Origin: Fimicolochytrium jonesii
Lineage: Eukaryota
Assembly (NCBI RefSeq): GCF_025526975.1
Contig: NW_026515695.1
Coordinates: 1 to 64,000 of the forward strand
DNA length: 64,000 nucleotides
Reading direction: 5' to 3'
In this document: positions 1-53,201 of the stretch, piece by piece
How the letters are laid out: each line of letters starts with the position of its first letter
Numbering within the stretch: position 1 is the stretch's first letter
Notes under the pieces: generated by a model
Seen by the model: only the letters and a program-made list of their open reading frames with translations
Told to the model about the DNA's origin: nothing
Database searches by the model: none
Made by a program: the position numbers and the translations under genes

Positions 1-480
1 CGCTGTGAAGGAAGAAGTTAATGGCCCGCGCGATCACTGCGGCAGATCTGGTGCATAGTGATGCGTTTTACGACAGTACTATTGGCTTCATCGACTATCT
101 GTCAGGGCTTTATGCCTGCGGCATCCACGACAACTGCCGAGGCCCATACCGAGGGGTTTGATCGCTCCACTGGGCTCCCCCCTTTGGGAAGAGCCAGCGA
201 GCGACCTTCGCGGGCAAACCGCGTACACGTATATTAACAACAATCAATACGTAAATACATATGATTCAGCACATCTTTGGACCCAACGACGCCGGATCGC
301 GCACGGCGAGACCCAACTTCGGCGATATGGTAAATGAGATGCATATGACGATATGAGAGATGATATGCGTTCGAGAAATGAGCCCCGTGCGCGGTCCGAC
401 CCAAAGATGGCGGCGATATGAGAGGTTAGGTGCCAGACGCAGATGTGAAGTCGAATGTGAGATGTCATTGCCGCGACGCA

Positions 481-779
481 GTCGGGGGACCAATTTTCGC
501 CCCACGCTGTGCTAGTCAGCCATCAATGGATTTTGGGGAGAAATTTGTCCCCCGCACGTCAAACCGGGAAGTCCCGCCGGCGGGGGACCAATTTTCGCCC
601 CACGCTGTGCTAGTCAGCCATCAATGGATTTTGGGGAGAAATTTGTCCCCCGCACGTCAAACCGGGAAGTGCCGCCGTCGGGAGACCAATTTTCACCCCA
701 CGCTGTGCTAGTCAGCCATCAATGGATTTTGGGGAGAAATTTGGCCCCCGCACGTCAAACCGGGAAGTGCCCGGGGACC
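481..779. repeat. 3x tandem 98-bp repeat, each unit an imperfect hairpin
   Basis: CAATTTTC recurs at 491, 589 and 687. Within a unit, GGGGACCAATTTTCGCCCC can pair with GGGGAGAAATTTGTCCCC. Confidence 0.95.
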
Positions 780-1383: not shown

Positions 1384-2898
1384 TTATTCATCTTCATCAG
1401 GGAGGCCGTATTTCCGGATGGCCGCGGCCGTCGCCAGGGGCAGCGTCACAACAGCTGTGTGGCAACTGCCGCCGGACGTGTCAAGCACCGCCGTTCCGTG
1501 GAGCTTGTCAGGCATCCACGTCCACATGCAGTCGGGCTGCAGCACCAAGTAGAAGCCTTGCTCTGGCAGCGCAAATACCCACTTGCCAACAACGGTTGGC
1601 GGAGCGGCGGCGTAGCCTGCCACCCATGCGCATAGTTTGCGGGCTTGAAGCTCCTCTGGAAGCTCCTCCTTCGGGGTCGGCTTCCATATGGCGCGTCCTG
1701 TGTGCGGGTTCAGCACGCCGGCTACGCCGTTGTCCGACGGGTCGGAGAGAACGACCACTTGATAGTTGGTGGTGGCAAACAGCGGGGGGAACTCATTGGA
1801 ATTTGGCCTGTACACCTCTGGCATGGCCATCATCAGGTAGGCCGCCGCGGTGGGGTTGCGTTTGGCGAGCTCCTGCAGCAGTCGCTTGGTGAGGGCCTTT
1901 TCCGTGGCGACGAGAAACGTCTTTACGGACATGTCTGCCCCTCCTTTCATTGAATAGTGCGATGTCCCCCTGGCATATCCCGAGTTCTTGTTGCCACAAC
2001 AAAGCCCCGCGGCGTGCATTGTGCCCCTTGAGGCCTTCCATCGAACCACAGCCGGCCGGGATCCACAGGACTTGACAATGAGCCCCAGCCGTAGGTCGTG
2101 TTCGCGACGACCCGCGGTATTGTATGAGATTGTGGCCACAAGGGCGCCGTCCTTGTCGCGGATGTAGATGTCAGCCCCCGCCCGGGGCTCAATTTGCTCA
2201 AGCCCATCCAGGCCCCTCGCCTTCGCCGGCCTCTCCCCAAACCCCGCATAGACCATCTCGCCCTCCCAGCCATCGCACGAGGCGGGTGTTGGCACCACGA
2301 TGTGAGCAGCCGGGCGGCTAGCGGAGGGCTGGGGGTCCACCAAGAAGTCGGCCGTGGTAAGACTGCCATCGCTGATTGCGGCGATGATGCCGGACCGGAG
2401 CCCAATGTGGTGCTTGGCAGGCTTCTTCTGGTGACGGGACCGCGTTGGCCTATTGATCCACCAACCCCAAAGGGTGGGGTTGTCTTGCTTGATCTTCTTT
2501 GAAAAAAGGCCAATCGCCTTGGCCTTGTCTTCTAGGCGGGCGTCCCGGGCGGCAAGGCCAGCGTCTACCAGCAGGGGATACAAAAAGGCCACCGTGTCGC
2601 CGAAGATAGCTGCGCCGCGGCTCTTGCCCATGCCCATCAGAAGAGCCTCGACCGCGGTGGGTGCGACGGGGGGCGTGGCCTGTGGCGCGGTAGAGGGGAA
2701 GGGGGGGAGGGAAGGTGTTAGCAGCTCAGCCCGCGAGATCAGCATATAGCAAACACGCCCAGGCAGGTCGACCCCCCGCAAGCGGCGGTCGTGCTCAACA
2801 TGGACCGCAAGATCAGCGCAAAGCAAACACGCCCAGACAGCGCATCCCATGCAGGTCGACCTCCCGCAAGCGGCGGTCGTGCTCAGCATGGGCCGCAA
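1384..2898 (-). CDS. Tet/JBP-like 2OG-Fe(II) dioxygenase-family protein (first iron ligand His replaced by Leu; true start may be ~2637)
   Basis: Motif order GTMHAAG … LFATTNYQVVV[L]SDPSD … WVFALPEQGFYLVLQPDCMWTW…LHGT resembles the double-stranded beta-helix core of fungal Tet-like oxygenases. The HxD position reads LSD (CTC codon at 1747-1749); the distal His is at 1498-1500. Confidence 0.6.
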   Translation of the reverse strand: MRPMLSTTAACGRSTCMGCAVWACLLCADLAVHVEHDRRLRGVDLPGRVCYMLISRAELLTPSLPPFPSTAPQATPPVAPTAVEALLMGMGKSRGAAIFGDTVAFLYPLLVDAGLAARDARLEDKAKAIGLFSKKIKQDNPTLWGWWINRPTRSRHQKKPAKHHIGLRSGIIAAISDGSLTTADFLVDPQPSASRPAAHIVVPTPASCDGWEGEMVYAGFGERPAKARGLDGLEQIEPRAGADIYIRDKDGALVATISYNTAGRREHDLRLGLIVKSCGSRPAVVRWKASRGTMHAAGLCCGNKNSGYARGTSHYSMKGGADMSVKTFLVATEKALTKRLLQELAKRNPTAAAYLMMAMPEVYRPNSNEFPPLFATTNYQVVVLSDPSDNGVAGVLNPHTGRAIWKPTPKEELPEELQARKLCAWVAGYAAAPPTVVGKWVFALPEQGFYLVLQPDCMWTWMPDKLHGTAVLDTSGGSCHTAVVTLPLATAAAIRKYGLPDEDE

Positions 2899-2985
2899 GA
2901 TCAGCGCAAAGCAAACACGCCCAGACAGCGCATCCCATGCAGATCGACCTCCCGCAAGCGGCGGTCGTCCTCAGCATGGGCCGCG
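2731..2985. repeat. ~87-bp tandem repeat, about 3 copies (first one shortened)
   Basis: CCGC(A/G)AGATCAGC…GCAAACACGCCCAG…CCCGCAAGCGGCGGTCGT starts at 2731, 2805 and 2892. Confidence 0.9.
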
Positions 2986-3059
2986 AGCCCAGGCGGTCAA
3001 CACCCAGCGGGGGCGCCCACGGCTACACGGCGGCCACTCACCTCGTCGGCGCCGAGCAT

Positions 3060-3195
3060 GCTCAGAGTGTGCTCTGCGTGAGTTGCCGGGCTTGAGCTCA
3101 AAGGAGGTGGGGGTTGGCCGGGGGGGTGAGGGGGCTGTTGTCCGCTGCGAGCGCTTGACGTTTCCATAGCTCAGAGTGTGCTCTGCGTGAGTTGC
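3060..3195. repeat. 27-bp direct repeat pair in the divergent intergenic region
   Basis: GCTCAGAGTGTGCTCTGCGTGAGTTGC at 3060-3086 and 3169-3195. Confidence 0.9.
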
Positions 3196-3428
3196 GTGAG
3201 CTGCGAGCAATTGACGTTTTGTGTGAGAGGAGGAGAGTGTGGTCTTGGTGATGCGGCGATCAGCAGTGTGGACAAGCCACGACTGCGCCACAACTGCGCC
3301 AGGCTGTAAGTCCTCCCCCGCTCTCAGCCTCATTACCACAGCACTGACGCGAGTTCCTTGACACACAGCTATCACGGCAATCACCTGCAACATTTGTCTC
3401 GGCTGACCTAGGGCACAGCACGGCCATC

Positions 3429-6400
3429 ATGTCATCACACCAGGCGCTCCAGGGGCACCTGTGGTGTGGCATCTTTCCTGGAGCTACCACACCACGGCGG
3501 AAGAGGAGAAAGGTTACTCCCGTTAACCCGCGTCTGCCAACCACTGTGCAGACACCATTGCAACCCCCACAATTTGAGCTCCCACCCTCTGTCCATCGCC
3601 ACTTGCCCCAAGCAATTGCGGACATGGTTGGCGAGAGTTCCGGCGATGAAGACAGGCAGCAGCAGCAGCAACAGCAGCGAGGGCTTTCACCCGCGGACAG
3701 GGGTCTGCAGCATCCGTTGAACCTCCCCGCTCCCATCCCGTTCCTTTTTCCCAGCACACCGGGTGGACCCCTGGTGTATGAACCCCCGCCACCACCACCC
3801 GCTCAACGACCCCGGCAGACGCATTCCAGCACCAAGGTTTCGCTTCACCGAATCATCCATAATCAAAATCAAGTTCAAAGGGAGCGCCTGACAGCATTCA
3901 TCGGCAACGTTCACGTCCTTGCGCGCCACACCACCTTCTTTCTCAAGCACTTCCTTGGTGAGTTTTTGAGGTGCGCTGCACTGTATATTTCCCATGAACA
4001 ATGTCCTGACCGCTACGTCTGCCCACCACAGCCGATCATCCTCTACACGATTTCCCGGACATCACGGACAAGCACATCAGTGTGATATTTGAGCTGCTAA
4101 ACAATCCAGGCTACAATGGCAATCCAGTCATCGCGCAAGAGTTGCGTCCATGGGTTCAAGACTACTGTGATGTTCACGGATTTGCCCCCATCCGCATGCG
4201 AAATTGCCAACAGACCGCAGCGTACACGGCTACGAGCATCCTCACAAACCTCAAAGTTAACGTACAAGAGCATTTCATGCAAATGTTTCTGCGCTACGTC
4301 AATGAAAGGCTTGGTTTGAAGCAAGTCGTACTGCATCTCCGTGCCGGAGTCGACCGAGCGCAGCGGCGACGCTATTATCAGCGTGTCTGTCAGTTTACAA
4401 AGTATGTGACATTTGAAGAGTTTCCAACCGAAGAGGAGTTTGCCCGCCTCACACGACTTGAGCGGACTGTCCTCGACGAGTTATGGGCTCTGTTTCCTCC
4501 CCAGGATGAACAGCTTGCATACAGCCTTGTGGTGGACGCAATGCCATATTTAGGTGAGTTAGTATATTTCCGGCCCCCCCCTCCCGCGGGTTCCTCTTTT
4601 GTCTAATCATGGTCCGCACCCGCCTCGCCTCATCACGGGTGCCTATTGTGAGCTCTCACGCCTCTATGAGCGCCGTGGAATGCGGCTGTTTTCCCCTATC
4701 CCGCTGCGCAAATCTCGAATCCAGTCATCTGTTTGGATCGGCATGCTGATCCTAGGCACTCATATCCTGGGCTTGAGCCGAAGTCGCATGGGGAAATTCA
4801 CCGATGAACGCAAGCGGGAGCTGTGGGGGCAGTTTATCAACGTGAATGTATGTCTCTATCCCTCTGCGCTTATTTCACTCACCTCACCTCGCTGAATGAC
4901 GGATTGCAGGACAAGGTCTTCAAGGATCGAAAGAAGCTTGGTCTCAAATTTGATGGGTCAATCAGCACAAGCGGGTATTCCGCTACCATCCACTCCAAGA
5001 AGCCAGAGCTCAAGTATGGGCTTCAGGCCCGGAAGCGCAGCAAGGCCGAAATGCAGGAAGAAGTCAAGCAGCTGTATTTTGAGCACCACATCGCGGAACT
5101 ACGGGTGGCTCCAAACATTGTCTGCATTGATCCGGGCAAGCGTGACCTCCTGTTCTGTCGAGACATCGAGAAGGAGCGGCCATTTCGGTACGTTTCAGTT
5201 GATTACTACTGCCCTGCTGTCCCCGCTGTCCCCGCCCCCCCCCCCCCCCAACCCTCGACTTCGCGGAAGATGGTGCATAGGTGTCCGTGGCGCTGATCAT
5301 GTTGTAGCGGTTGCCACCGTCGCAGATCTGGGCGAGGAGTCCGTTGCTGGAGTTGGACGATGACGGAGCCGTCGACGGGGATGCCGCCGATGACGGAGGG
5401 TTGACGGTCTTCCGCGAGGCTGTCGGCGATGGCTTCATTGTAGACGGCGGTGTTGCCGGCCATGTTGAAGGGGAGTTCGTGTATGAGGGAGCGGACGCGG
5501 TTGGTTTGCTCGTTGCCGTCGATCTTGGAGAGGAGGTCGTCTAGCAGGATCCGGTCGGGGATGTTGCGCGTCATATCCACCTCTTCCCTCTTCCCCGCTC
5601 GTCACGTGGCCCATGTTGATGACCTGCATGACGGTGTCGAGGCCAACCCTGTCCTCGTCCCCGTCCCCACCATCCCCCCCCTCACCGTCCCCACCATCTG
5701 TTGCCGCGTTCTCACAATGCACCACCCCATACCAGATACACATCCAATCAACGGGCGGTCGAGACAAAGTCTCGGTACTTTCGAAGAGACATGACAGAGC
5801 GAAAGATCAATGCCGGCATCGCTGAGTTGGAATCACATATTCCGTCACACGAGAGCATGAACATCGAGGCGTTCTCAGCGTTCATTGTGGATTACGAACA
5901 TGCGGGTATGATGTATCATGCATTGTCTTCAAATACATGGGCTGACATCCATATCCCAGATCCCGCCCTGGATGAGTTTTACCAGGATGAGATTCACGTG
6001 GCTCGCAGATCCAAGGCGTTCTCACTGCGGCAAAAGTCTGAGGGCAAGCTCATCAAGAACATGCGACGCCTGTATGGAAAGCATTTTTCAGTCATCTTGG
6101 GTGATTGGAGCAATGCTGGAAAAACCATGCGCTTTCAGGAATCATCAAAGACCAAGGGGTGAGTGACCATCATTGTTTTTCATGTATTATAATATGCTAA
6201 CTCATCATGGAAATCAGATTCCGCACACTCTTTGCAAGAAACAGCATCCCATGCTACTTGCTAGATGAGTATCGTACGTCCTCCGTGTGCCCAGACTGCC
6301 ACGGCCGTGTGAAGAAAAACATCCGACGCCGGCTGTCATCTCGGCCATGGCAAGCTCGAAAGGGAAGAATGGAATTTGTCCATGGATTGGTGGGTTGCCC

Positions 6401-6575
6401 CAACCCCGAATGTATCAACCAAGACTGGACGCCATTTGAGATTCCTGGAAGACGACCACTACGGATGAAAGTGCACAATCGGGACGTCCTAAGCACCAAG
6501 AATTTCCTCTCGATTGTGCGTTCGGTGGTGTTTGGCGATGGCCGCAGACCAGACGCATTCTCCCGTAACCGGTAG
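3429..6575 (+). CDS. Fanzor: Fanzor (Fanzor1-type, TnpB-related RNA-guided endonuclease), 7 exons, ~754 aa
   Basis: Exons 3429-3957, 4032-4553, 4639-4847, 4910-5187, 5736-5905, 5960-6158 and 6218-6575 join in frame (2265 nt). Motifs: FSPIPLR; FDGSIST.G; RuvC-I VCIDPGKRDLL (D 5129); ILGDWS; RuvC-II LDEYRTS (E 6267); zinc finger CPDC…CPNPEC; RuvC-III HNRDV (D 6483). The intron 2 acceptor reads GG instead of AG (4637-4638). Confidence 0.9.
5206..5580 (-). other. Antisense ORF (124 aa) nested inside the 548-nt Fanzor intron 4
   Basis: Open frame with protein-like composition lying inside intron 5188-5735, flanked by C-rich GTCCCC repeats. Product not recognised. Confidence 0.45.
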
Positions 6576-6672
6576 TCTAGATTTCACCCCATCCCATTTT
6601 CCGGGGTGGTTTTCTGCCATCCACATCATTGTACCTCTGCCTGAGGCGTCGCCGATGATGGCAACTTTACTG
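6576..6672 (+). ncRNA. Candidate Fanzor omegaRNA scaffold / element right end
   Basis: About 97 nt after the stop codon are nearly identical in copy B (29852-29949), then similarity stops abruptly. Potential stems CACCCC(6585-6590)/GGGGTG(6603-6608) and TGCCATC(6615-6621)/GATGGCA(6657-6663). Confidence 0.7.
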
Positions 6673-6701: not shown

Positions 6702-7257
6702 TATCCCGGCTGCACATCGAAATCGTCGTTAGTATTTAGCGTCCGTACTACGACACGGTGTGTCGTCGCCTGGTTTCGTCATTCGCACCGCCACCTCAGA
6801 CACCAACATCTAAGCATAGTACACATCATGCAAGTCGTTTTCGCTGCCATCGCAAGGATTTAGTACAAATTCTCCGTTTCGCACTAGCGCTCCCCTTTTT
6901 CCCATCCTTCCTACCACCTCTCTGAAGCCTAAAGCATCTCTCGCACACCCCAATATGCCTCAGCGGGCGTATGTACGACTGTCAATCCTACTTAGACCTT
7001 GCACAGTTTCAAGGTCAGGAGCCTGCGGCGGATGATGATGATGCTGAATGATGATGGGAGCCAGAATGGGAACGAAGACGGTGAGAACGACAACAAGGAG
7101 TAGCTAGTTCCATAGAAAAGCGACGATCTCATATAGCTGTGCGTACGAATATGATTTGCTACAGCTGTGCGGAGGCTATTTACGTTTGACGAATGCAAAT
7201 CTGCGCTGTTGTGCGAATCTTAAATACTGACGACGATTTCGGTGTGCAGCCAGGATA
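6702..7257. mobile_element. MITE-like non-autonomous element with 37-bp terminal inverted repeats
   Basis: 6702-6738 TATCCCGGCTGCACATCGAAATCGTCGTTAGTATTTA versus 7221-7257 TAAATACTGACGACGATTTCGGTGTGCAGCCAGGATA: 3 mismatches in 37. TA at both outer ends (possible target-site duplication); no long internal ORF. Confidence 0.8.
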
Positions 7258-23168: not shown

Positions 23169-24903
23169 ATGCCAAATCTCGATACTCCTCTCTTCTTCTT
23201 TGGCGTGACGACTGGTATCGCCCTCGCCGCCGCCACCCAATACCTCCTCAACAGCGCGGTCAACGCAAAGCACAGGAAGAGAGACCAGGGTGTCTCAGAA
23301 GTCGATAGGTCAGAAGCGCTCCTCGGCGTGCCACTGACGCACGATGCCGCACAGCTGGAGATGCGGTCTTTCACAGAGTCCCTGCTCGGCTCCACCTCCG
23401 CATCCGGGAACGTCCTGCAGTCGCCGACAGCCGTAAACGTCGGCACCACGCATGGACGCCGACCATCTTACAGCGTTCCTTCGTTCGTCGCTGCGGACGG
23501 TACGTTACCGCAACTCGAACGCGAGTTCACCGTCCCGCCGCACCGATTGCAGACCATGGTCAGACACCTCGTGAACGAGATGAAGAAGGGCTTGGATGCG
23601 GACGGACATACCCTGAAAATGATCCCGTCGTACGTCGTCGCGAGACCAAAAGGACAAGAAACGGGGTCGTACCTCGCTCTGGATTTCGGAGGGTCGAATT
23701 TCCGGGTGTGCTTGGTTGAACTGCGGGGCAACGGACAGAGCCGAGTGCGTCAGTCGAAACACTCCATCTCGGATGAGCTCAAGAAGGGGAAAGGAGAGGC
23801 TCTCTTTGACTTCTTTGCCAAGTGTATTGGGGAATTCTTAATTTCCATCGGTCAAGATGTCCTCGAGCCCCGCAATATCGGCTTTACGTTCAGTTTCCCC
23901 GTGCAGCAGACTGCTCTCAACCACGGCGCTCTCATGCACTGGAACAAAGGTTTTGAGTGCAGCGGAGTTGAGGGCCAGGATGTGGTCGGGCTCCTGAACA
24001 AATCGCTGAGGAAGGCCAATTACAAACTCACTGTCACCGCGTTGGTCAACGACACCGTCGGAACGTTGATTTCGCACGCATACCGCGATCCCCAAACGTT
24101 TGTGGGAGTGATTCTCGGCACGGGCACCAACGCCGCGTACGTCGAGAAAATGGAGTACATCAAAAAATGGAAGGGAAAGAAGACCACTGGCGAAATGGTC
24201 ATCAACACCGAATGGGGAGCCTACGACGAGCAGTCTGTACTGCCGCTCACCAGCTGGGACCGCATGCTGGACCGCGCATCGCTCAACACGGGGAAACAGA
24301 TCTTCGAGAAGATGATCTCTGGCATGTACCTCGGCGAAATCGTGCGGTACATCCTCATCGACCTCGTGTCGACGGGCGAGCTGTTCAAAGGCACCTCGTC
24401 TAAACCGCTGCAGGTCCCTTACAAGTTCGAGACGGCTTACATGTCGCGAATCGAGCGTGACCATTCACTGGAGTTGTCTGACACGAAAGTAGTTTTGGAG
24501 GATATTATGGAGATCCCGGCAACGTCGGTGCAGGATCGACGGGTTGTGAAGCATGTGTGTGAGCTTGTGGGCATTCGCGCGGCTCGGCTGAGCGCTGCTG
24601 GTGTCGCTGCTATCATCACCAAAATGAACCGGTTTGATGCTTGCACGGTCGCTATTGACGGAAGTGTCTTTGGTAAGTGTTGAGATCATTCTGAGAATGC
24701 GCCATTCTGTGTTCCTCTTTCTTCCATGACGGCCGATATCTTATCATTTGTTATTTGCAGAACACTACCCCCACTTTGCCAACCGCATGCGCGATGCATT
24801 ACGTGAATTGCTGGGTATCATGGCCGAAAACGTCGTTTTGGAACAAGCACGAGATGGGTCTGGGGAAGGCGCCGCTCTCATCGCTGCCTTGCACGGAAAG
24901 TGA
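23169..24903 (+). CDS. HXK: Hexokinase with N-terminal hydrophobic anchor
   Basis: LALDFGGSNFRV; GFTFSFP; WNKGF; VNDTVG; ILGTGTN; INTEWG; FEKMISGMYLGE; DGS. Intron 24673-24760; last exon carries DGSGEGAALI. Confidence 0.96.
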
Positions 24904-25895
24904 GGGGCCGAATCGAGTTTCTTTCCAACTCCTCTCGATAGGATTCTCCTTTCCGCCAACATACCCCATCGCACCCGGGCCTGTATAGACGCAGCGACAA
25001 TCCAGCCCAGTGGGCTCCCGCTGTGAAAACATAATCCCCGTAGAGATGACTTTCTCTGTTCCCGATTGTTGCATCCTTAGTTTCACCACCAAGTTGCCGC
25101 TGTTTGTACTTGTCTGATTGGACTTTTGGGGTTTCCTTGATATTTGTAAATATTATGGACCTCCTTTTAATTCATGCACTGATGCCACTCTACGGCGGGA
25201 GATGGGGGTGGGTTGATTTTTGGCTTTTTAAGGCTTCGATAGAACATGCTTCGAAGATCAATCGTCTTCGGTCTGGATCAGACTTATTAAAGCCTGCGCA
25301 ACGCTCACGTGATGAAACCCACGTGATGGAACGCTCTCTCGGACGCTCTTTTGGCCACCTATTACTGTAATTGCACTCTGATAACACTGGCGCTTTGGCA
25401 CAGTTGAATCTTGCTCTCCCTGCAGACGTGCAGGTCGCAAGTTCAATTCCCATTCCCAGACAACTTCTTTGTTTGTTCAGATTATGACCCCTGTCGCGCT
25501 AGGCGCGGCGTGGTAACTACTGTCGCGCTCGGCGCTTCGCGGGTGTTAACTGAACAGCACAACTACCGTACGTACTATGTATCGCAACAGAAAGCAACCT
25601 TACCCACTCTCAAACAGCTCGAGCCACGACCATTTTTCCTCTGCCTCACGGTTCTTTTCGTTTTATTCCTGCTGAAACGGGTTGTTTATAAACACTCCCT
25701 CTCAGACTGCAGATCGAATTCAGTCGCCGTCGCGCTGCATTCTGATCTCATGGAACGTTCCGCTCTCAACTCCCGCGATCGATGGAGACAGCCCGGAATA
25801 GGGGCAGCCTCGCGATTCGCTCTATGAGAGAGCGTGTGTCAGGAGCAGTGGAGATGGCGGAGACAGTTGTCTCGGAGACAATGATGAACTCACCC

Positions 25896-26864
25896 TCACG
25901 CAAATGCATAATCCTCCTCCTCCCACAACTCGGAGCCCGCTGTCTCGTCGCCACCAGATGTAGATCCGTATGACGACACGGACTCGGAGTGTGGGAGGCT
26001 GCTCTCCACCGACGTATACTCCTCGTCTTCATCATCGGCGTCGTCGGAGGCGGGGGTAAAAGCCCGCACTTCCTCGGCCTTCTGCTTTGCAGCGGCCAGG
26101 CGCGCTCGGTGTGCTTCGAAGAGGGGCGTGGTGTGGGCCTTCATCACCTGGCGTGTTGTTGAACCGCACGTCTCCCTCACTAGCTTTCCCAACGCCCTCC
26201 AGTGCCCCTCCTCCTCTTCAAGCGCGGCCAGCTCCTCCTGCGCCATCTCGACATACCCCTCCTCCTCGTCACCGGTCGTCAGGGTGGGCGCTGCTGCTGC
26301 TGCTGCTGCGGCTGCGGCCCCTGCTATGGCGGCAGCGCGGGTGGGGCGGGTGGGGATGGGGGCAGGGTTGAGAAGGGCGGAGATTGGGGCGGGGTTGAGG
26401 AGGCTGGTGATTGCAAGGGGGTTAGGGATAGGGGCAGTGGGAGCGGCAGCGGCGACGGGAGGCTGGGGGGCGGAGACGGGGGGAGCGGCGGCAGAGACGA
26501 GGGGCTGGGCAGTGGAGACGGGGGTTGGGATGGTGGAGACGGGGGGATGGTGGGCGGAGACGGGGGGCTGGCGGGTGAGGTGCGTGGTGGCTGGGGCGGG
26601 TGCACGGCGGGTGGTTGAGGGGACGACGGGTTTGCCCGGGAGGGCAGCGATGGCGTCCAGATATGCCTGCGCGCGCCCACACTTATTGCAGGCCGCCCTG
26701 GCTGTCTTGACGTTGTTCACAATGCCCGTTCGCCATGCAGCGGACGTCCGAGCCCCGCAAGCAACGCAGACTCCTCCAGGAGCAAGGCAGGAGTAGTTTC
26801 GGTCGTCACTACCCCTGCCTGCTCCAGCACCAGATTGAGTTCGGCGTGGGGGTGCTTTGGGCAT
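25896..26864 (-). CDS. GATA-like zinc-finger protein with Pro/Ala repeats, divergent from Fanzor copy B
   Basis: CVACGARTSAAWRTG…ACNKCG; PPVSA repeats; acidic coiled C-terminus. Likely ATG at 26864, after an (AAC)n tract. Confidence 0.65.
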   Translation of the reverse strand: MPKAPPRRTQSGAGAGRGSDDRNYSCLAPGGVCVACGARTSAAWRTGIVNNVKTARAACNKCGRAQAYLDAIAALPGKPVVPSTTRRAPAPATTHLTRQPPVSAHHPPVSTIPTPVSTAQPLVSAAAPPVSAPQPPVAAAAPTAPIPNPLAITSLLNPAPISALLNPAPIPTRPTRAAAIAGAAAAAAAAAAPTLTTGDEEEGYVEMAQEELAALEEEEGHWRALGKLVRETCGSTTRQVMKAHTTPLFEAHRARLAAAKQKAEEVRAFTPASDDADDEDEEYTSVESSLPHSESVSSYGSTSGGDETAGSELWEEEDYAFA

Positions 26865-27102
26865 GGTTGTTGTCGTTGTTGTCGTTGTTGTTGTGTTGTC
26901 GTTGTTGTTGTTGCTGTGTCGGAGGGTGGAACTCGGCGTGTGCTGGGGTTGGAACAAGAGAGCGCGAGGAGGAGGTCTCAGAGACAGGGACCGCAAAAGT
27001 AGGTAGGTTTGACAGTATTTTGACAGTGTAGGCATATAATAGGTTCGCGATCCGTAAGGAAGACTTTTGGCGTATGGCTCTTTTTGTTTGCTCATATGAC
27101 AT

Positions 27103-27326
27103 CCCTAACCCTAACCTTTAACCCTAACCCTACCTACCTTCCCCAGACATCCCAGCCCCAGTCCGGGGCACGTCTCGAAATTCCCCAGGCTCCTCTGGCT
27201 GAGGTTTCCAGCACATTCTCCCCCACAGACATTCTCACCAAACCACAATTGCGCACACTTCCACCCTTGCACATCAAGACAAACCCCCAACCAACCTCTA
27301 AAAGCCTTCAACACATCGCAGGTAAG
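27103..27326 (+). promoter_or_regulatory. Telomere-like CCCTAA tract plus putative non-coding first exon of Fanzor copy B
   Basis: CCCTAACCCTAACCTTTAACCCTAACCCTA at 27103-27132. Block 27244-27326 ends in CAG|GTAAG and recurs at 51992-52074. Confidence 0.6.
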
Positions 27327-27413
27327 CAGGATTCCTGGATCCTCCTCAAGAGCAGGCCCCTTGCTCGGTCCCCTTGATCTCACCACTTGCCTGCACAGCA
27401 CAGCACAGCCATC

Positions 27414-29851
27414 ATGGCATCACACCAGGCGCTCCAGGGGCACCTGTGGTGTGGCATCTTTACCGGAGTAACCACACCACCACGGCGGAAGAGGAGGAAG
27501 GTTACTCCCGTTACCCCGCGTCTGCCAACCACTGTGCAGACACCATTGCAACCCCCACAATTTGAGCTCCCACCCTCTGTCCATCGCCACTTGCCTGAAG
27601 CAATTGCAGACATGGTCAGCGAGAGTTCCGGCGATGACGACGGGCAGCACCAGCAGCGAGGGCTTTCACCTGTAGAAAAGGGGTCTGCAGCGTCCGTTGA
27701 ACCTCCCCGCTCCTATCCCTTTCCTTTTTCCCAGCACACCGGGTGGATCCCTGGTGCTTGAACCCCCACCACCACCACCACCACCAGTTCAACGACCCCG
27801 CCCACAAACACATGCCAGCACCAAGGTTTCGCTTCACCGAATCATCCATAATCAAAATCAAGTTCAAAGGGAGCGCCTGACAACATTCATCGGCAATGTT
27901 CACATCCTTGCACGCCACACCAGCTTTTTTCTCAAGTACTACCTTGGTGAGTTTTTGAGGTACACTGTATATTTCCCATAAACCAATGTCCTGACTGCTA
28001 CGTCTGCACCCCACCACAGCTGATCATCCTCTACACGACTTCCTGGACATCACCGAGAAGCACATCAGTGTGACATTTGAGCTGCTAAACAATCCAGGCT
28101 ACAACGGCAATCCGGTCATCGCGCAAGAGTTGCATCCATGGGTTCAAGACTACTGTGATGTTCACGGATTCGCCCCCATCCGCATGCGGTATTGCCAACA
28201 GACCGCAGCGTACACGGCTACGAGCATCTTCACAAACCTCAAAGTTAACGTACAAGAGCATTTCATGCAAATGTTTCTGCGCTACGTCAATGAAAGGCTT
28301 GGTTTGAAGCAAGTCGTACTGCATCTCCGTAGAGCTGGAGTCAACCGAGCGCAGCGGCGACACTATTATCAGCGTGTCCGTCAGTTTAAAAAGTATGCGA
28401 CGTTTGAAGACCTCCTCCTCGCGCTCTCTTCTTCCAACCCCAGCACACGCCGAGTTCCACACCCCAACACAGCAACAACAACAACGACAACACAACAACA
28501 ACGACAACAACGACAACAACCATGCCCAAAGCACCCCCACGCCGAACTCAATCTGGTGCTGGAGCAGGAAGGGGTAGGGACGACCGAAACTACTCCTGCC
28601 TTGCTCCTGGAGGAGTCTGCGTTGTTTGCGGGGCTCGGACGTCCGCTGCATGGCAAACGGGCATTGTGAACAACGTCAAGACAGCCAGGGCGGCCTGCAA
28701 TAAGTGTGGGCGCGTGCAGGCATATCTGGACGCCATCGCTGCCCTCCCGGGCAAACCCGTTGTCCCCTCAACCACCCTCCCCGCACCCGCCCCAGCCACC
28801 ACGCACCTCACCCGCCAGCCCGCCGTCTCCGCCCACCATCCCCCCGTCTCCACCATCCCAACCCCCGTCTCCACCGCCCAACCCCCCGTCTCCGCCCGCC
28901 AGCCCCCCGTCTCCGCTGCCGCTCCCCCCGGTCACTGTCCCCACCATCCCTCCCGTTCGATATTCCGCTGCACTGCCCTCACAATGCACCACCCCATATC
29001 AGATACACATCCAATCAACGGGCGGTCGAGACAAAGTCTCGGTACTTTCAAAGAGACATGACAGAGCGAAAGATCAATGCGGGCATCGCTGAGATGGAAT
29101 CACATATTCCATCGCACAAGAGCATGAACATTGAGGCGTTCTCAGCATTCATCGTGGATTACGAACATGCGGGTATGATGTTCTACTTCTTTGATTTTCA
29201 AATTTGGTAATACATGGGCTGACATTCATATCCCAGATCCCGCCCTGGATGAGTTTTACCAGGATGAGATTCACGTGGCTCGCAGATTCAAGGCGTTCTC
29301 ACTGCGGCAAAAGTCTGAGAGCAAGCTCATCAAGAACATGCAACGGCTGTATGGAAAGCATTTTTCGGTCATCTTGGGTGATTGGAGCGATGCTGGAAAA
29401 TCCATGCGCATTCAGGAGTCATCAAAGACCAAAGGGTGAGTGACTATCATTGGTACTATGTATTACAATATGCCAACTCATCATGGAAATCAGATTCCGC
29501 ACACTCTTTGCAAGAAACAGCATCCCATGCTACTTGCTAGATGAGTATCGAACGTCTTCCGTGTGCCCAGACTGCCACGGGCGTGTGAAGAAAAACATCC
29601 GACGCCGGCTGTCGTCTCGGCCATGGCAAGCTTGAAAGGGAAGAATGGAATTCGTCCATGGATTGGTGGGTTGCCCCAACCCCGAATGTATCAACCAAGA
29701 CTGGACGCCATTTGAGATTCCTGGAAGACGACCACTACGGATGAAAGTGCACAATCGGGACGTCCTAAGCACCAAGATTTTCCTCTCGATTGTGCGTTCG
29801 GTGGTGTTTGGCGATGGCCGCAGACCAGACGCAATCTCCCGTAACCGGTAG
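27414..29851 (+). pseudogene. Fanzor: Fanzor copy B, pseudogene
   Basis: Closely similar to 3429-6575 with the same intron positions where retained. It has a +1 frameshift near 27677, the equivalent of ~4420-5680 (including RuvC-I) is replaced by foreign DNA, and there is a CGA>TGA stop at 29633-29635. Confidence 0.92.
28411..28930 (+). repeat. Inverted copy of ~26477-26975 (5' part of the GATA-like gene) inside Fanzor B
   Basis: Encodes MPKAPPRRTQSGAGAG…CVVCGARTSAAWQTG…CNKCG, nearly identical to the minus-strand ORF; AGA microhomology at the left junction. Confidence 0.93.
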
Positions 29852-29949
29852 TTTAGATTTCACCCCATCCCATTTTCCGTGGTGGTTATCTGCCATCCAC
29901 ATCATTGTACCTCTGCCTGAGGCGTCGCCGATGAAGGCAACTTGTACTG
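29852..29949 (+). ncRNA. Candidate omegaRNA scaffold / right end, copy B
   Basis: Near-identical to 6576-6672; ends …GGCAACTTGTACTG. Confidence 0.65.
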
Positions 29950-49224: not shown

Positions 49225-50627
49225 AGCGTCCAGGGAATAACTTGTGGATGCGTGATCGTCAACTTGGAGGTGGAAAAGTCTATAGGTCTATATATCGGCT
49301 CTTTCGTTGAGCGGTCCGCGATGCACGGAGGTTCGGGGAGAGCCCCTTGTGGATGTTCGTACACTCGTTCAGTGAGAAGCAAACGAGACCATAACAGATC
49401 GCAGAAGTGTTTCGTTGACTGTTCTGCCTGGAAATACGTTCTCCATTAATGAGCCGCTCATCACATCAACTGATATGAAGTGGTGAGCTGAACTGAGCGC
49501 CAGAAACCCACCTTCAAAATGATACTGTATGCCTTGGAATATGAGTTGCCGAACAACCTATCGGCGTGCGCTTCAATCGGGCTGCTATGTAGAGTTCAAA
49601 GTGTGGAAACAAAGCGTAAGCACGGCGCTTCTAGAAGGTGTGCACTACGACTGCGCGCTTTTGACTACTGGAAACGACAGCATTCGGGGTTCAGCACATG
49701 CATTTCGAACACAAGACAGTGCGATAACACCATTGCGGAAAGGTCCATTGCGACGCCTCCAGCAGCTCCTGCAAGGCCGACGAGAAAAAACTCACTTGCT
49801 GGTGCCTTGGGAATGGCACAGGTGGTGACGCTCTGGTACGCGGTTTTGACGGCTAAAGATGCTGCTGGGCGAATAATGCAATGGCAAGCCAGGTGATAGT
49901 AGCGAATGGGTGGGATGTTGGGAATGGCCTGGAATGCGAGTGGACGTTTCTCTTTATTTGAAGGCAGCGAGAGGAAGGCCGTCCGCTTTTTCCCAGCAGG
50001 ACCGCAGTCAAGTCGGCGCACATAAGGCCCCGAGGGGGGGTCTTGGTGGGGTGCCGCGCGTGAAAGCACGATAAGCTTGTCTTTCTGATGTCTTACCACG
50101 CCCGATAATTGATACGGGGGGATCTGCCGTCAATTCAGATCTCGGTACCGCCCTCATCTTTCTTATCCAAAGTCCAAACACTCGAAATCAAAATCTTCTG
50201 ATTTAAAATTTGTTAAGCGGCCGTTTAATCGGAACACCCCTTGTCACGCACTCAAAATTGCTGATCATTCAGGCTCAGCATGACCTCACGCGCCGTGATA
50301 ACCAACCCCACTCCGACCCCACACCACTGCAGAACACCCATTCCACGATTCCACGACTTCCTACTACACAGGTTGCCCCAATGGAAGGGTGGTCGGGCAT
50401 GTGGAGAAGTGGTGACCACGAGTATCGCCTGAAACTCTTCCTGTCTGAGGTAATGACAATCATGACAACCATGGAGCTGTGCCTACTCGTCGTCGGACTG
50501 ATCTGACGACGGGGAGGCAAAGCTGCCCGACAGGGACTGTACTTTCACTCGGGACCCTCTTCGTCGCTTCTCATAGGCAGATGCTTGGTGATGATTTTGA
50601 AAGTGTACGGCACCGGCCCCGCTTCTC

Positions 50628-51630
50628 TCAGTCCGGTTTCCGACGTTTCGTAAAGCGTGGTTTTCGAGTTGGAGTCCCGTGCAGTTTCGAAAACGAACTC
50701 AGTATTCTCCATAGATCTTGTTCCTGCCACCTCATCTTGGACGTGTGCGACCGTCCAACCCTTCCATCGTCTTCGAAGACCAGGAATTCCCGTTCCCATC
50801 CAATCGTTGCAAACCGGTAAACCCGAGGGTCCTCCTTCTTCGTCCGTTTCCGGGCCATATGCACCATCAGCATGTGAGCAAGTGTGTGTGAGATAACCTT
50901 GTCGCCAATCTTCGTTCCTCTGGTCTTCGCTTGAGAGACGAGCGAGACATTCGCCAGTGATTCCGAACTTTGGTTCCCGTAGCCCAGAAAGTAATCGTTT
51001 GCACCCGACAGAGTGATACCGGTTTCCGGTGAAGTATATGTTGCCGAGAAAGCGCCGAGAAAGCGCAACGGAACTTTAGACTCATCGGAGGCGATGTGCC
51101 GCACTATTCTGAGAAAGACGCAGTCCATGTACGTCCGCGTCATGGAATCGGACCGCATGCCAAAGTGTATCGGAAGTTCCTTCCATTGAGTCCCTGAGGG
51201 AGAAGAGAGAATTAAGTTAGCTTGAGGTCAGGATAGACGATGCGATAATGTAAACCACAACGTACTGAACGACTAAGTGAGCCTCACGAGTGGTAAGCCG
51301 TCTGGCATAGTGAAAGACTCCAAAGGACCCTGCCCAGGCATATCGAACGGGCCCTCTACCTCCAAGACAGGCCATGGGTCAAAGTCCCTACCGAAAACGG
51401 ATATGGGCTCTTTCCGCGTCACGGAGGTTGCATGCACCGTCTTTGGGCGTATAAGCTGGTCGAGAAACCGTCCGAAAATACTAGTATGTTTATGCTGACT
51501 GAAGCGAGTTTACTTACGACACCCAAGAAGTTCTTGATCGTCGGGTCGTCAGCTGCTAAATCGAGCAACTTTCGTTATATACCGACGGAGAGGGCTTCGT
51601 ATCGGTCTCTCACTAGCTGCTCATACTCGG
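50628..51630 (-). pseudogene. Degenerate PD-(D/E)xK restriction-endonuclease-like (Crinkler-REase-type) gene
   Basis: LSGANDYFLGY…LVSQAK…TLAHMLMVHMARK…VYRFATIG..REFL resembles the fungal pattern G..DY…VEAK…Q.LAYM..VH..RK…VYG.ATDG..F.F, with several conserved residues altered. The upstream coding frame contains a stop. Confidence 0.55.
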
Positions 51631-51696
51631 ACATTGTGCATAATCTGGTTCAATGGAGACGCGGACACTCAATTCCATTAAGGGGTGGGTTTACCA

Positions 51697-51913
51697 CCAG
51701 GCTGGCAGGCCAGGCTGGCGCCGCTGCACGGCGCGTCTCTTGGGACGCGGACACTCATCAATTCCATCGCCTCTGGCCAGGCTGGCTGGCCAGGCTGACC
51801 CGCTGCACGGCGCGGACTTGTACAGCCTTCACTGTCGGGCTTACAGCCTTCACCCTCGGCCTTGTGTATATGTACAGTACAGCCTTCAGCGCGCGGGGCA
51901 GGGTTAGGGTTAG
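51697..51913. repeat. Cluster of short direct repeats plus TTAGGG tract
   Basis: CCAGGCTGGC.GGCCAGGCTG…CCGCTGCACGGCGCG twice (~51697, ~51777); TACAGCCTTCA three times (~51821-51888); AGGGTTAGGGTTAG at 51900-51913. Confidence 0.85.
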
Positions 51914-51991
51914 TGGGCCGGGACGGCTTCACAGGCGAGAAGACAAATTCCAGACCTGCTTTCACACCGAGAGCTCCTTCTCACAATAGCG

Positions 51992-52074
51992 CACAATTGC
52001 GCACACTTCCACCCTCGCACATCAACGCAAACCCCCAAACAATCTCTGAAAGCCTTCACCACAGCGCAGGTAAG
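51992..52074 (+). repeat. Second copy of the Fanzor-B promoter/5' exon block
   Basis: CACAATTGCGCACACTTCCACCCT.GCACATCAA…AAACCCCCAA…AAAGCCTTCA…CGCAGGTAAG aligns with 27244-27326. Confidence 0.85.
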
Positions 52075-52454
52075 TAGAGACACGCATTTACGCACATATT
52101 GATGCATAAACGTTCCCATATGCATACGTATGCATGAGCAAACAAAACATTGTAAAGACCCACAAGCGCTATGTACATGTTCATGTTCATATACATCTAA
52201 AAAGGCATCCGGTCAATAACGTGGAATGCCTTATCTTGTCGACGTTGAGTTGTTTGACATCGACGCCTCCGAGCCACTTGACGTAGATTCCATGGACCGC
52301 CAACCTTGTGGTAGTACCGGGGATAGAAGTTTCACGACGGGGTATATACGATTCCCGCACCAATTGCCTAGATAAACCACACCAGTGAATAAAAGCTGAG
52401 AACGGAGTCGTCTGTCTTACTACATACCTGTGTGTAGATGAGGCCTACTCCTCA

Positions 52455-53201
52455 TCAACATCGTCTCCTTGACCAAGACTTGACCTTAATCCTCCCAGCT
52501 TCCATGTTGGTGAGTCGGTTGCGGACGACCGAGAGGAGTTCTTCAGTCACTTTGGCGAGACTATGCTGGCGTATCTGGGGCTCATAGTCCATGAAGCTCG
52601 AGATGGCGTCCTCTACTGCCGCAAACTGTGGCCTCGTTCGATGAGGATCGGTGAGGTCGGTCAACAGCTGCCTGGCCCCGGTGTTTCCAGCGCCATACTT
52701 GGTCACGTCGGCCGGTGTGAGACTTGAATACCCAGGTATAAAGCCATTGAGGAACTCTTTGACTAACTGATTGAGTACCTTCGGGACTCTGCTGGCGGGT
52801 TTGGTTGCATTTGGTCGTGCCGCTGAAGTGGCTGAAGTGCTGGCTGTCATGTTGGTGAGGTCCACCGGAGTCCTGCCCAATTGCGAACGTAGTTCATCCT
52901 GAATGATATCCCTCACGAGCGGACCAATGGTATCACCAAGCGATGATAGAAAGTCGTCAAACATGGCTCTAAAGTTGTCCTGTTGTTCCTCCAGGAGCTG
53001 TTTCAAGTCGGCATGGGTAAGCTTCTGGCCGGCCGTGGAAGGAGGAGTAGATTGACCGTAGAGTCGGGTACGTTGCGGAACTGGGCTACCCGTATCGTAA
53101 TTGCCCGAACCCAAACGGGGTCTAGGCTCCATCGGGACTGAGCTTGAACTGTGATGTGGACTACCTCCCACACGGGTTGTATAACTGATGTTCGTATACA
53201 A
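52455..53201 (-). CDS. Orphan ORF in the accessory island (248 aa)
   Basis: Uninterrupted ORF with a coiled-coil-like segment; no family recognised. Confidence 0.45.
   Translation of the reverse strand: MYTNISYTTRVGGSPHHSSSSVPMEPRPRLGSGNYDTGSPVPQRTRLYGQSTPPSTAGQKLTHADLKQLLEEQQDNFRAMFDDFLSSLGDTIGPLVRDIIQDELRSQLGRTPVDLTNMTASTSATSAARPNATKPASRVPKVLNQLVKEFLNGFIPGYSSLTPADVTKYGAGNTGARQLLTDLTDPHRTRPQFAAVEDAISSFMDYEPQIRQHSLAKVTEELLSVVRNRLTNMEAGRIKVKSWSRRRC

What the first reader, a model, noticed from the sequence alone, without database searches (positions are those of the whole stretch)
25896..29949. Exchangeable cargo slot: the same Fanzor sits next to a different divergent partner and a different promoter
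Seen: homology between copies A and B starts only at the splice-acceptor-like GCACAGCAC just before the ATG (~3413 vs ~27403) and ends at the 3' tail. Upstream, copy A has a Tet-like ORF and copy B an unrelated GATA-like zinc-finger ORF, both divergent from Fanzor. Each has its own GTAAG donor for a 5' UTR intron (3306 vs 27322). Inference: the Fanzor+omegaRNA cassette is modular, splices onto different non-coding first exons and is associated with different DNA-acting partner genes.
Basis: partly seen in the sequence, partly recalled or inferred. Interest (0 to 1): 0.82.

Follow-up and report, generated by a model that had tools for sequence, protein, structure and literature searches.

The report
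Fanzor element with two cargo arms
In a chytrid fungus one RNA-guided DNA-cutter (Fanzor) gene family sits behind two unrelated front ends, one with a TET-like gene and one with a zinc-finger gene, each pairing indicated at several places in the genome; the front ends were likely swapped inside a predicted intron just ahead of the gene, and the copy flagged here is broken.

Summary
The sequence observations hold, with one large omission. Copies A and B share DNA only from a tandem CACAG acceptor (3413/27398) to the 3' tail (6672/29949), but not continuously. B has a frameshift and has lost about 1.26 kb including RuvC-I, replaced by an inverted 509-bp copy of its own zinc-finger partner, so B is dead. 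In Fimicolochytrium jonesii gene models, 3 of 4 other zinc-finger paralogues and 3 of 4 other TET-like paralogues lie within two accession numbers of a Fanzor model (chance 1.5% each). Two further Fanzor models run into the A-type or B-type upstream DNA. B's first exon recurs at 52.0 kb without Fanzor. Best reading: two amplified subfamilies of a non-autonomous Spu-1-like element with a common Fanzor arm and different cargo arms, likely joined by template switching. A repeatedly used slot is not shown (clade test p 0.13), and splicing is untested. The scan noted this Fanzor family on other pieces of this genome and the TET pairing on this window before.

The parts
74..93 (+). Candidate left terminal inverted repeat of element A, with TA at 77-78
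   Evidence: 17 of 21 positions match the reverse complement of B's 3' end, starting at its last base; 5 of 1000 shuffles of 1-1383 score as high; against A's own end 280 of 1000
483..773 (.). 98-bp tandem repeat, 3 copies, inside A's left arm
1384..2889 (-). TET-like 2OG-Fe(II) dioxygenase ORF, cargo of arm A; His of HxD replaced by Leu in this copy
   Evidence: 4 paralogue models in F. jonesii and homologues in Powellomyces and Geranomyces; HxD...H aligned; Atlas hit of homologue P0022 at 0.96 to a cluster with PF20515 on 15% of members
2890..3310 (+). A-type divergent promoter and predicted untranslated first exon, ending at GTAAG 3306
   Evidence: paralogue model P0007 runs through this DNA into the Fanzor start
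3413..3423 (+). Acceptor of copy A, start of A-B homology
3429..6575 (+). Fanzor1 copy A, seven predicted exons, 754-aa open frame with IDPG, LDEY and NRD motifs; intron 2 ends in GG, intron 4 carries an insert
   Evidence: exons match SpuFz1 (8gkh) at E 3e-23 and 1e-29
6576..6669 (+). Conserved 3' tail of A: predicted omegaRNA scaffold and right end, TA at 6668-6669
   Evidence: 96% to B over 98 nt; fold z -2.2; contigs of run X1 part from the window behind 6667
25896..27095 (-). Zinc-finger ORF, cargo of arm B (stored model starts at 26864): C4 GATA-like finger, Pro/Ala-rich middle, acidic tail
   Evidence: 4 other paralogue models; three 86-91% identical, the fourth in the same 90% cluster
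27103..27131 (+). Telomere-like (CCCTAA)n repeats in the B-type divergent promoter
   Evidence: in the window these 8-10-mers occur only here and at 51900-51911
27244..27326 (+). B-type predicted untranslated first exon with GTAAG donor at 27322
   Evidence: 89.5% to 51992-52077; paralogue model P0016 joins this exon to the CACAG run and omits B's intron
27393..27408 (+). Three tandem CACAG acceptors; start of homology to A at 27398
27414..29851 (+). Fanzor1 copy B, broken: frameshift in exon 1, middle with RuvC-I lost
28408..28916 (+). Inverted 509-bp copy of the zinc-finger gene (26470-26978) filling the deletion; 3-nt shared AGA at the left joint, C-rich tract of intron 4 at the right joint
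29852..29946 (+). Conserved 3' tail of B: predicted omegaRNA scaffold and right end, TA at 29945-29946
   Evidence: z -1.4; 2 contigs of run X1 part from the window behind 29946
51900..52077 (+). Third copy of the B-type first exon and donor, with telomere-like repeats in the opposite orientation, and no Fanzor behind it

Best explanation
Copies A and B share a Fanzor1 gene and its 3' tail but carry unrelated front arms, and likely belong to two separately amplified subfamilies of one non-autonomous, Spu-1-like DNA transposon whose front arm (cargo gene, divergent promoter, predicted untranslated first exon) was likely replaced by template switching during break repair.

Steps. (1) Shown: the shared DNA begins at the acceptor and ends at the tail. 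(2) Indicated by accession order, not by DNA: each arm travels with Fanzor at several loci, so the mobile unit is arm plus cassette. (3) Inferred: a transposase elsewhere in the genome moves the element through its ends; none was recognised inside. (4) Inferred from known TnpB/Fanzor biology: active copies cut empty sites, and repair copies the element back. Such copying can switch template and so make mosaic copies and captured fillers. (5) Inferred: a switch anywhere in the 5' UTR intron leaves the reading frame whole and needs only a donor from the new arm, so that is where viable swaps are kept. The slot is a permissive breakpoint kept by selection, not a dedicated mechanism. (6) Shown: copy B has a frameshift and a filler-replaced deletion, the kind of product that step 4 predicts. 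B can at most supply a guide RNA and its zinc-finger protein. (7) Speculative: the TET-like protein would oppose methylation silencing, and the zinc finger would act on the element's own promoter.
For: Sharp homology limits. 3 of 4 zinc-finger and 3 of 4 TET-like paralogues lie within two accession numbers of a Fanzor model, against 1.5% of all models (P for 6 of 8 about 3e-10; data). Accession order is positional: 9 split Fanzor models have N and C halves within two numbers, and at two loci the order is partner, N half, C half. Model P0007 reads through A-type DNA and P0016 through the B-type exon. Candidate left inverted repeat with TA outside the TET-like gene. Fanzor copies look mosaic: 553 of 903 informative site pairs are incompatible and neighbouring sites are more compatible than chance, p 0.004-0.013 (25 of 28 rows). 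The filler in B has microhomology at its joints, as in gap-filling Pack-TIRs (PMC8277862, passages). Intron 4 of A holds a second foreign insert at the same C-rich tract. Fanzor A versus B dN/dS is 0.28.
Against: No DNA of the other loci was available (scans 21, 72 and 73 empty), so pairing rests on accession numbers. No left inverted repeat was found for B (595 and 880 of 1000 shuffles as good), and A's is significant against B's end only. 34 of about 42 other Fanzor loci have no partner that I could classify. The B-type exon also stands without Fanzor at 52.0 kb. Decayed copies and mis-spliced models can inflate site incompatibility. dN/dS of the zinc-finger copies is 0.54 on only 12 changes, so selection on it is unproven.
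Confidence: 0.66

Rival explanations
1. One or both arms are separate mobile elements or their fragments. One of them landed once in the 5' UTR intron of a Fanzor element, or a Fanzor cassette landed once in it, and the composite was then amplified. The zinc finger or TET-like gene belongs to that other element and is a neighbour rather than cargo.
For: The B-type exon and telomere-like repeats recur at 51900-52077 with no Fanzor. Model P0016 has that exon, but the DNA further upstream is not clearly B's. No left repeat for B. 1 of 4 paralogues of each partner has no Fanzor model within two numbers. Gypsy insertions occur in Spu-1 loci (PMC10432273, passage).
Against: An independent element should mostly stand alone, yet 6 of 8 partner paralogues are beside Fanzor. 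No transposase or reverse transcriptase family was hit in either partner ORF. A's candidate left repeat matches the Fanzor right end.
Confidence: 0.17
2. The 5' UTR intron is an actively and repeatedly used exchange point. Fanzor cassettes move between several arm types by recombination at the CACAG run, so one Fanzor population drives several cargo genes.
For: A-B homology begins at an acceptor and B-third-locus homology ends at a donor. The three TET-type Fanzors fall in three places of the quick tree, with at least 2 changes forced by well-supported branches. Copies recombine. The CACAG run varies in copy number.
Against: Holding the TET-type rows together is not rejected (AU p 0.131, quick tree, 26 of 28 rows); the same test for the zinc-finger rows did not finish. 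Gene conversion inside the Fanzor body gives the same scatter without moving any junction. Only two arm types are documented.
Confidence: 0.14
3. Simple insertions of a Fanzor cassette next to resident single-copy host genes.
For: The two upstream regions are unrelated.
Against: Both partners are multicopy and recur beside Fanzor. Zinc-finger relatives were found only in F. jonesii among 7993 scored candidates.
Confidence: 0.03

Closest known systems
Spu-1 / SpuFz1 of Spizellomyces punctatus (PMC3627910 passages and section 15; PMC10432273 passages; PDB 8gkh)
   Same: Closest solved relative of the nuclease. Multicopy, no transposase inside, conserved 3' tail, inverted repeats with TA.
   Different: Spu-1 is about 2.1 kb with one ORF. 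Here the gene has six predicted coding introns and a 5' UTR intron, element A is about 6.6 kb, and two amplified cargo arms exist. Saito et al. saw extra genes in 11 Spu-1 loci and named Gypsy/Ty3 as probable insertions.
Chimeric Fanzor1 elements of Bao and Jurka 2013: DFa-1/2/3, PPa-1/4/5, PGv-1 and Mariner sets (PMC3627910, passages)
   Same: 5' and 3' modules of Fanzor elements are recombined.
   Different: In the Sola2 sets one transposase-bearing 5' arm is joined to different Fanzor 3' parts. Here one Fanzor 3' part is joined to different arms that carry non-transposase genes, with the joint in a predicted UTR intron.
TET/JBP-carrying fungal DNA transposons (Kojima 2025, PMC12730594; abstract, term search and section 4.1 read)
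   Same: A TET-like gene rides passively as cargo and is proposed to counter methylation silencing.
   Different: Described for rusts, mushrooms and Pezizomycetes beside transposases; the main text holds neither 'Fanzor' nor 'chytrid'.
Pack-TIR / Pack-MULE capture by gap filling and template switching (PMC8277862, passages)
   Same: A filler from nearby DNA, short microhomology at the joints, later amplification.
   Different: Here the element keeps an RNA-guided nuclease that could itself trigger the repair, and the cargo arm likely supplies the nuclease's promoter.

Membership tests
Fanzor1 (SpuFz1-like) | RuvC-I DPG motif (PMC10711439) | tested here: met
   IDPG at 493 in copy A. Copy B has lost this part, so B is a broken derivative.
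Fanzor1 (SpuFz1-like) | Catalytic Glu six residues before the C4 zinc finger, then RD of RuvC-III | tested here: met
   LDEY 651, CPDC 660, NRD 723 in A; the same exon is present in B; match to 8gkh at E 1e-29
Fanzor1 (SpuFz1-like) | omegaRNA transcribed from the right end, RNA-guided cutting | not testable with these tools
   The tail is conserved (96%) and folds modestly (z -2.2, -1.4); no Rfam hit in the window
Spu-1-like non-autonomous TIR element | About 30-nt terminal inverted repeats with TA | tested here: inconclusive
   Imperfect 21-nt candidate for A (5 of 1000 shuffles); none for B. The end may lie at the TA or 3 nt beyond it.
Spu-1-like non-autonomous TIR element | No transposase between the ends | tested here: met
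   No Pfam transposase hit on the partner ORFs or Fanzor exons of either element
Spu-1 proper | Single ORF in about 2.1 kb | tested here: not met
   Seven exons plus a cargo arm, about 6.6 kb
TET/JBP dioxygenase | HxD...H iron ligands | tested here: not met
   For copy A, His of HxD is Leu; the 7 other aligned rows keep it, and the distal His is invariant in all 8. The family meets it; this copy does not.
TET/JBP dioxygenase | Double-stranded beta-helix fold or a profile hit above cut-off | tested here: inconclusive
   No Pfam hit for 7 of 8 homologues to this family; P0026 hits PF20515 at E 0.011, below cut-off; Atlas 0.96 for P0022; model pLDDT 38
GATA zinc finger | C-X2-C-X17/18-C-X2-C spacing (spacing recalled) and Pfam PF00320 above cut-off | tested here: not met
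   Spacing is X22 (sequence); 14.9 bits against 26.8; Atlas first hit a GATA cluster at 0.86, a lead only. GATA-like, not filed as GATA.
GATA zinc finger | Sequence-specific DNA binding | not testable with these tools
   needs an assay

The most novel reading that the evidence does not exclude
The Fanzor cassette is a promoterless, splice-in homing module. Its tandem acceptors let it take promoter and first exon from any upstream arm, and Fanzor-triggered repair both swaps the arms and copies them to empty sites. One RNA-guided nuclease population would thus drive several exchangeable cargo genes through the genome: a TET-like anti-silencing enzyme, and a GATA-like regulator of a telomere-repeat promoter like the Ams2/Teb1 AACCCT box of fission yeast histone genes (PMC5128866, passages).
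Probability: 0.17. Interest if true: 0.78.

Novelty: new variant of a known kind. Interest (0 to 1): 0.52.

Why it matters
What Fanzors do in their hosts is open; Saito et al. could only propose that they help transposons in trans. A family of about 44 loci in one fungus, with at least two amplified cargo arms on one nuclease arm, offers a natural comparison. It lets one ask whether Fanzor homing carries passenger genes, whether a TET-like passenger protects the element, and how a eukaryotic Fanzor gets its promoter. The Fanzor proteins themselves are already database hits (33 F. jonesii rows in Table S2 of PMC10711439). I found no description of the arms in six literature searches or three supplement searches; Repbase and unread supplements may hold one.

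Tried and rejected
No whole genome is held for this window. Both metagenome scans (Fanzor exon 2; 3' tail pattern) and one viral scan (zinc-finger ORF) returned no locus.

Sequencing runs: one DNA run at share 0.05, no RNA holder listed. Laid, it gave short contigs mostly 90-95% alike and no joints. It had no cover at the acceptor junctions, at A's left end or over 24900-25261; these gaps are not used as evidence.

A 28-nt match of the Fanzor right end inside the zinc-finger ORF (26030-26057) was rejected: 6 of 60 shuffled queries score as well. A 9-nt match near 25090 as B's left end was rejected (595 of 1000). A left-end-like match at the third locus is weak (35 of 1000).

The AlphaFold model of the TET-like protein was unusable (pLDDT 38), so no fold search was run; a PDB profile search found no dioxygenase. 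The careful tree did not finish, nor did the clade test for the zinc-finger rows.

My first adjacency count, on N-terminal models only, gave 3 of 8 directly adjacent. It was superseded when the published list of C-terminal models was added and the limit set at two numbers; with a limit of one number the count is 4 of 8. A Fanzor-zinc-finger fusion in B was rejected: the filler is read in another frame. The intron-4 insert ORF and the third-locus ORF are unrelated. Rfam gave nothing. PMC12247965 (passages) does not bear on the question.
Full report
OBSERVATION. A self-comparison of the window gives two A-B matches: 3413-4419 with 27398-28410 (90.5%) and 5711-6672 with 28978-29949 (94.1%). Nothing aligns upstream of the CACAG acceptor, even with 7-nt words. 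GTAAG lies at 3306 and 27322; chance gives about 0.06 per 120 nt. Both partner ORFs exist and diverge from Fanzor.

THE NUCLEASE. Copy A splices in silico to 754 residues over seven exons, with IDPG, LDEY, a C4 finger and NRD. Its exons match SpuFz1 at E 3e-23 and 1e-29. Intron 2 ends in GG, so A may splice poorly. Copy B has a frameshift in exon 1 (533 against 529 nt) and lacks about 1.26 kb with RuvC-I: it cannot make the nuclease. Shared coding parts show dN/dS 0.28 (24 synonymous, 23 replacement changes). The 3' tails are 96% alike. Contigs of one soil run (X1, laid) part from the window behind 29946 and 6667, which places the right end at a TA. The 2026 review states that the 3' target duplication lies within the scaffold (PMC13565253, passages).

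THE PARTNERS. The zinc-finger ORF has relatives only among F. jonesii models: three clusters at 86-91% and one member of its own cluster. The finger is GATA-like with X22 spacing, below the Pfam cut-off. The TET-like ORF has four F. jonesii paralogue models, four Powellomyces hirtus models and one Geranomyces model among 7 of 9 hits looked up here. This list is incomplete, since that search returns one protein per 50% cluster. The seven other aligned rows keep HxD and the distal His; copy A has Leu at the first His. The family label rests on an Atlas hit of a homologue (0.96, PF20515 on 15% of that cluster) and a sub-threshold Pfam hit of a distant homologue. The fold prediction failed.

DO THE PAIRINGS RECUR? 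No genome was held, so I used GenBank numbers of named models. Two searches with exon 1 gave 26 Fanzor models, 20 of them with accessions seen; the other 6 lie on contigs that bear none of the 8 partner paralogues. Table S2 of Yoon et al. (PMC10711439) lists 33 F. jonesii hits; I saw 32 and used 31. These 51 models form about 42 loci. Nine split genes have their N and C halves within two numbers, so numbering follows position. Of all other models 1.5% lie within two numbers of a Fanzor model, but 3 of 4 zinc-finger paralogues (P0018, P0004, P0002; not P0003, 7 away) and 3 of 4 TET-like paralogues (P0020, P0019, P0028; not P0021, 24 away) do; P for 6 of 8 is about 3e-10. At P0004 and P0020 the order is partner, N half, C half, as in the window. 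Two more models show upstream DNA directly: P0007 runs through the antisense of the TET-like gene and the A-type promoter into the Fanzor start, and P0016 runs through the B-type exon into a longer CACAG run, without B's intron. So four other loci are of TET type, three of zinc-finger type, one has the B exon, and 34 are unclassified.

ELEMENT ENDS. The reverse complement of B's right end aligns at 74-93, outside the TET-like gene, from its last base (17 of 21 positions; 5 of 1000 shuffles; one of five such tests; not significant with A's own end). No such match exists between the hexokinase gene and the zinc-finger ORF. X1 contigs cover 25278-25486 and 25775-25919, so B's arm may reach that far, but its left end is unknown.

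ONE SWAP OR MANY? In a quick tree of 28 N-terminal rows the three TET-type Fanzors fall in three places, with at least 2 changes forced. Holding them together (with P0008, the near-twin of P0007) is not rejected, AU p 0.131 (26 rows, P0017 and P0039 dropped). Among 25 rows (P0008, P0017, P0039 dropped) 553 of 903 informative site pairs are incompatible and neighbouring sites agree more than chance (p 0.004-0.013). The copies therefore look mosaic, which fits either arm exchange or conversion within the Fanzor body. Repeated use of the slot is open.

MECHANISM. B's filler has a 3-nt shared AGA at the left joint and merges into the C-rich tract of intron 4 at the right. The same tract holds a foreign insert of about 0.4 kb in A, absent from the short intron retained in P0016. 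Nearby filler and microhomology are the marks of gap filling by template switching (PMC8277862, passages). The filler is closer to other paralogues (117 of 121 residues to P0018 and P0002) than to the adjacent gene (114 of 121), so it is old or came from another copy. TnpB nucleases cut empty donor sites and promote restorative copying; for Fanzor this is proposed, not shown (PMC13565253; PMC10432273). I infer that the same repair replaced the front arm at least once. The joint survives in the 5' UTR intron because there the frame stays whole and the new arm need only supply a donor. The third locus, where the B exon ends at its donor against the 3' end of a convergent two-copy gene, is most simply a front-arm fragment that lost its Fanzor; it also keeps the nested-element rival alive. 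Telomere-like repeats occur in the window only before the two B-type exons. The likeness to the AACCCT box bound by the GATA factor Ams2 (PMC5128866, passages) is a lead only.

COMPARISON. Chimeric Fanzor elements are known since Bao and Jurka (PMC3627910, passages and section 15), in the mirror form: one transposase arm, several Fanzor parts. Spu-1 loci with extra genes are known (11 loci). TET cargo is known on many fungal DNA transposons, with no mention of Fanzor or chytrids in Kojima 2025. Intron gain in Fanzors is known (PMC10530073, passages). Searches and supplement searches showed no description of these arms; one Saito supplement was a scan, and Repbase could not be searched.

VERDICT. 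A real, genome-wide feature and a new variant of a known kind: two amplified cargo-arm subfamilies on one Fanzor arm. The flagged copy is dead, the splicing is unverified, the partner functions are leads, and a repeatedly used slot is not shown. Interest 0.52.

Noticed in passing
window 5188-5735: Intron 4 of Fanzor A is 548 nt against 54-85 nt for the other five and holds a foreign insert with a 122-aa ORF on the - strand (5206-5574); no Pfam or NCBIfam hit, exact sequence not in the protein collection.
   Followed up: partly
window 50500-51640 (-): A broken, intron-split gene diverges from the third copy of the B-type exon. Its motifs recall fungal PD-(D/E)XK nuclease domains of Crinkler-type proteins (recalled; no Pfam or NCBIfam hit). 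It could be a third cargo type or a resident pseudogene.
   Followed up: partly
window 52455-53132 (-): 225-aa ORF of no known family with a second model (P0046) on another contig, not near a Fanzor model; its 3' end abuts the donor of the third B-type exon.
   Followed up: partly
window 53227-53318: Imperfect 94-nt palindrome upstream of that ORF.
   Followed up: no
window 6702-6738 and 7221-7257: 37-nt inverted repeats (92%) about 550 nt apart, just right of element A; possibly a MITE.
   Followed up: no
window 2758-2984 and 3060-3195: An 88-bp tandem repeat (2.6 copies) over the start of the TET-like ORF, and an exact 27-nt direct repeat in the A-type promoter.
   Followed up: no
window 74-78, 6668-6672, 29945-29949: Both right ends are followed by TA then CTG, and A's left end is preceded by CAG then TA: either a palindromic target preference or three more bases of terminal repeat.
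   Followed up: partly
window 25278-25486: Covered by contigs of run X1, one with a loose end before 25363; may be a small repeat inside or beside B's left arm.
   Followed up: no
window 51658-51863: Short direct repeats (39-nt pair, 13-nt and 21-nt tandems) upstream of the third B-type exon.
   Followed up: no
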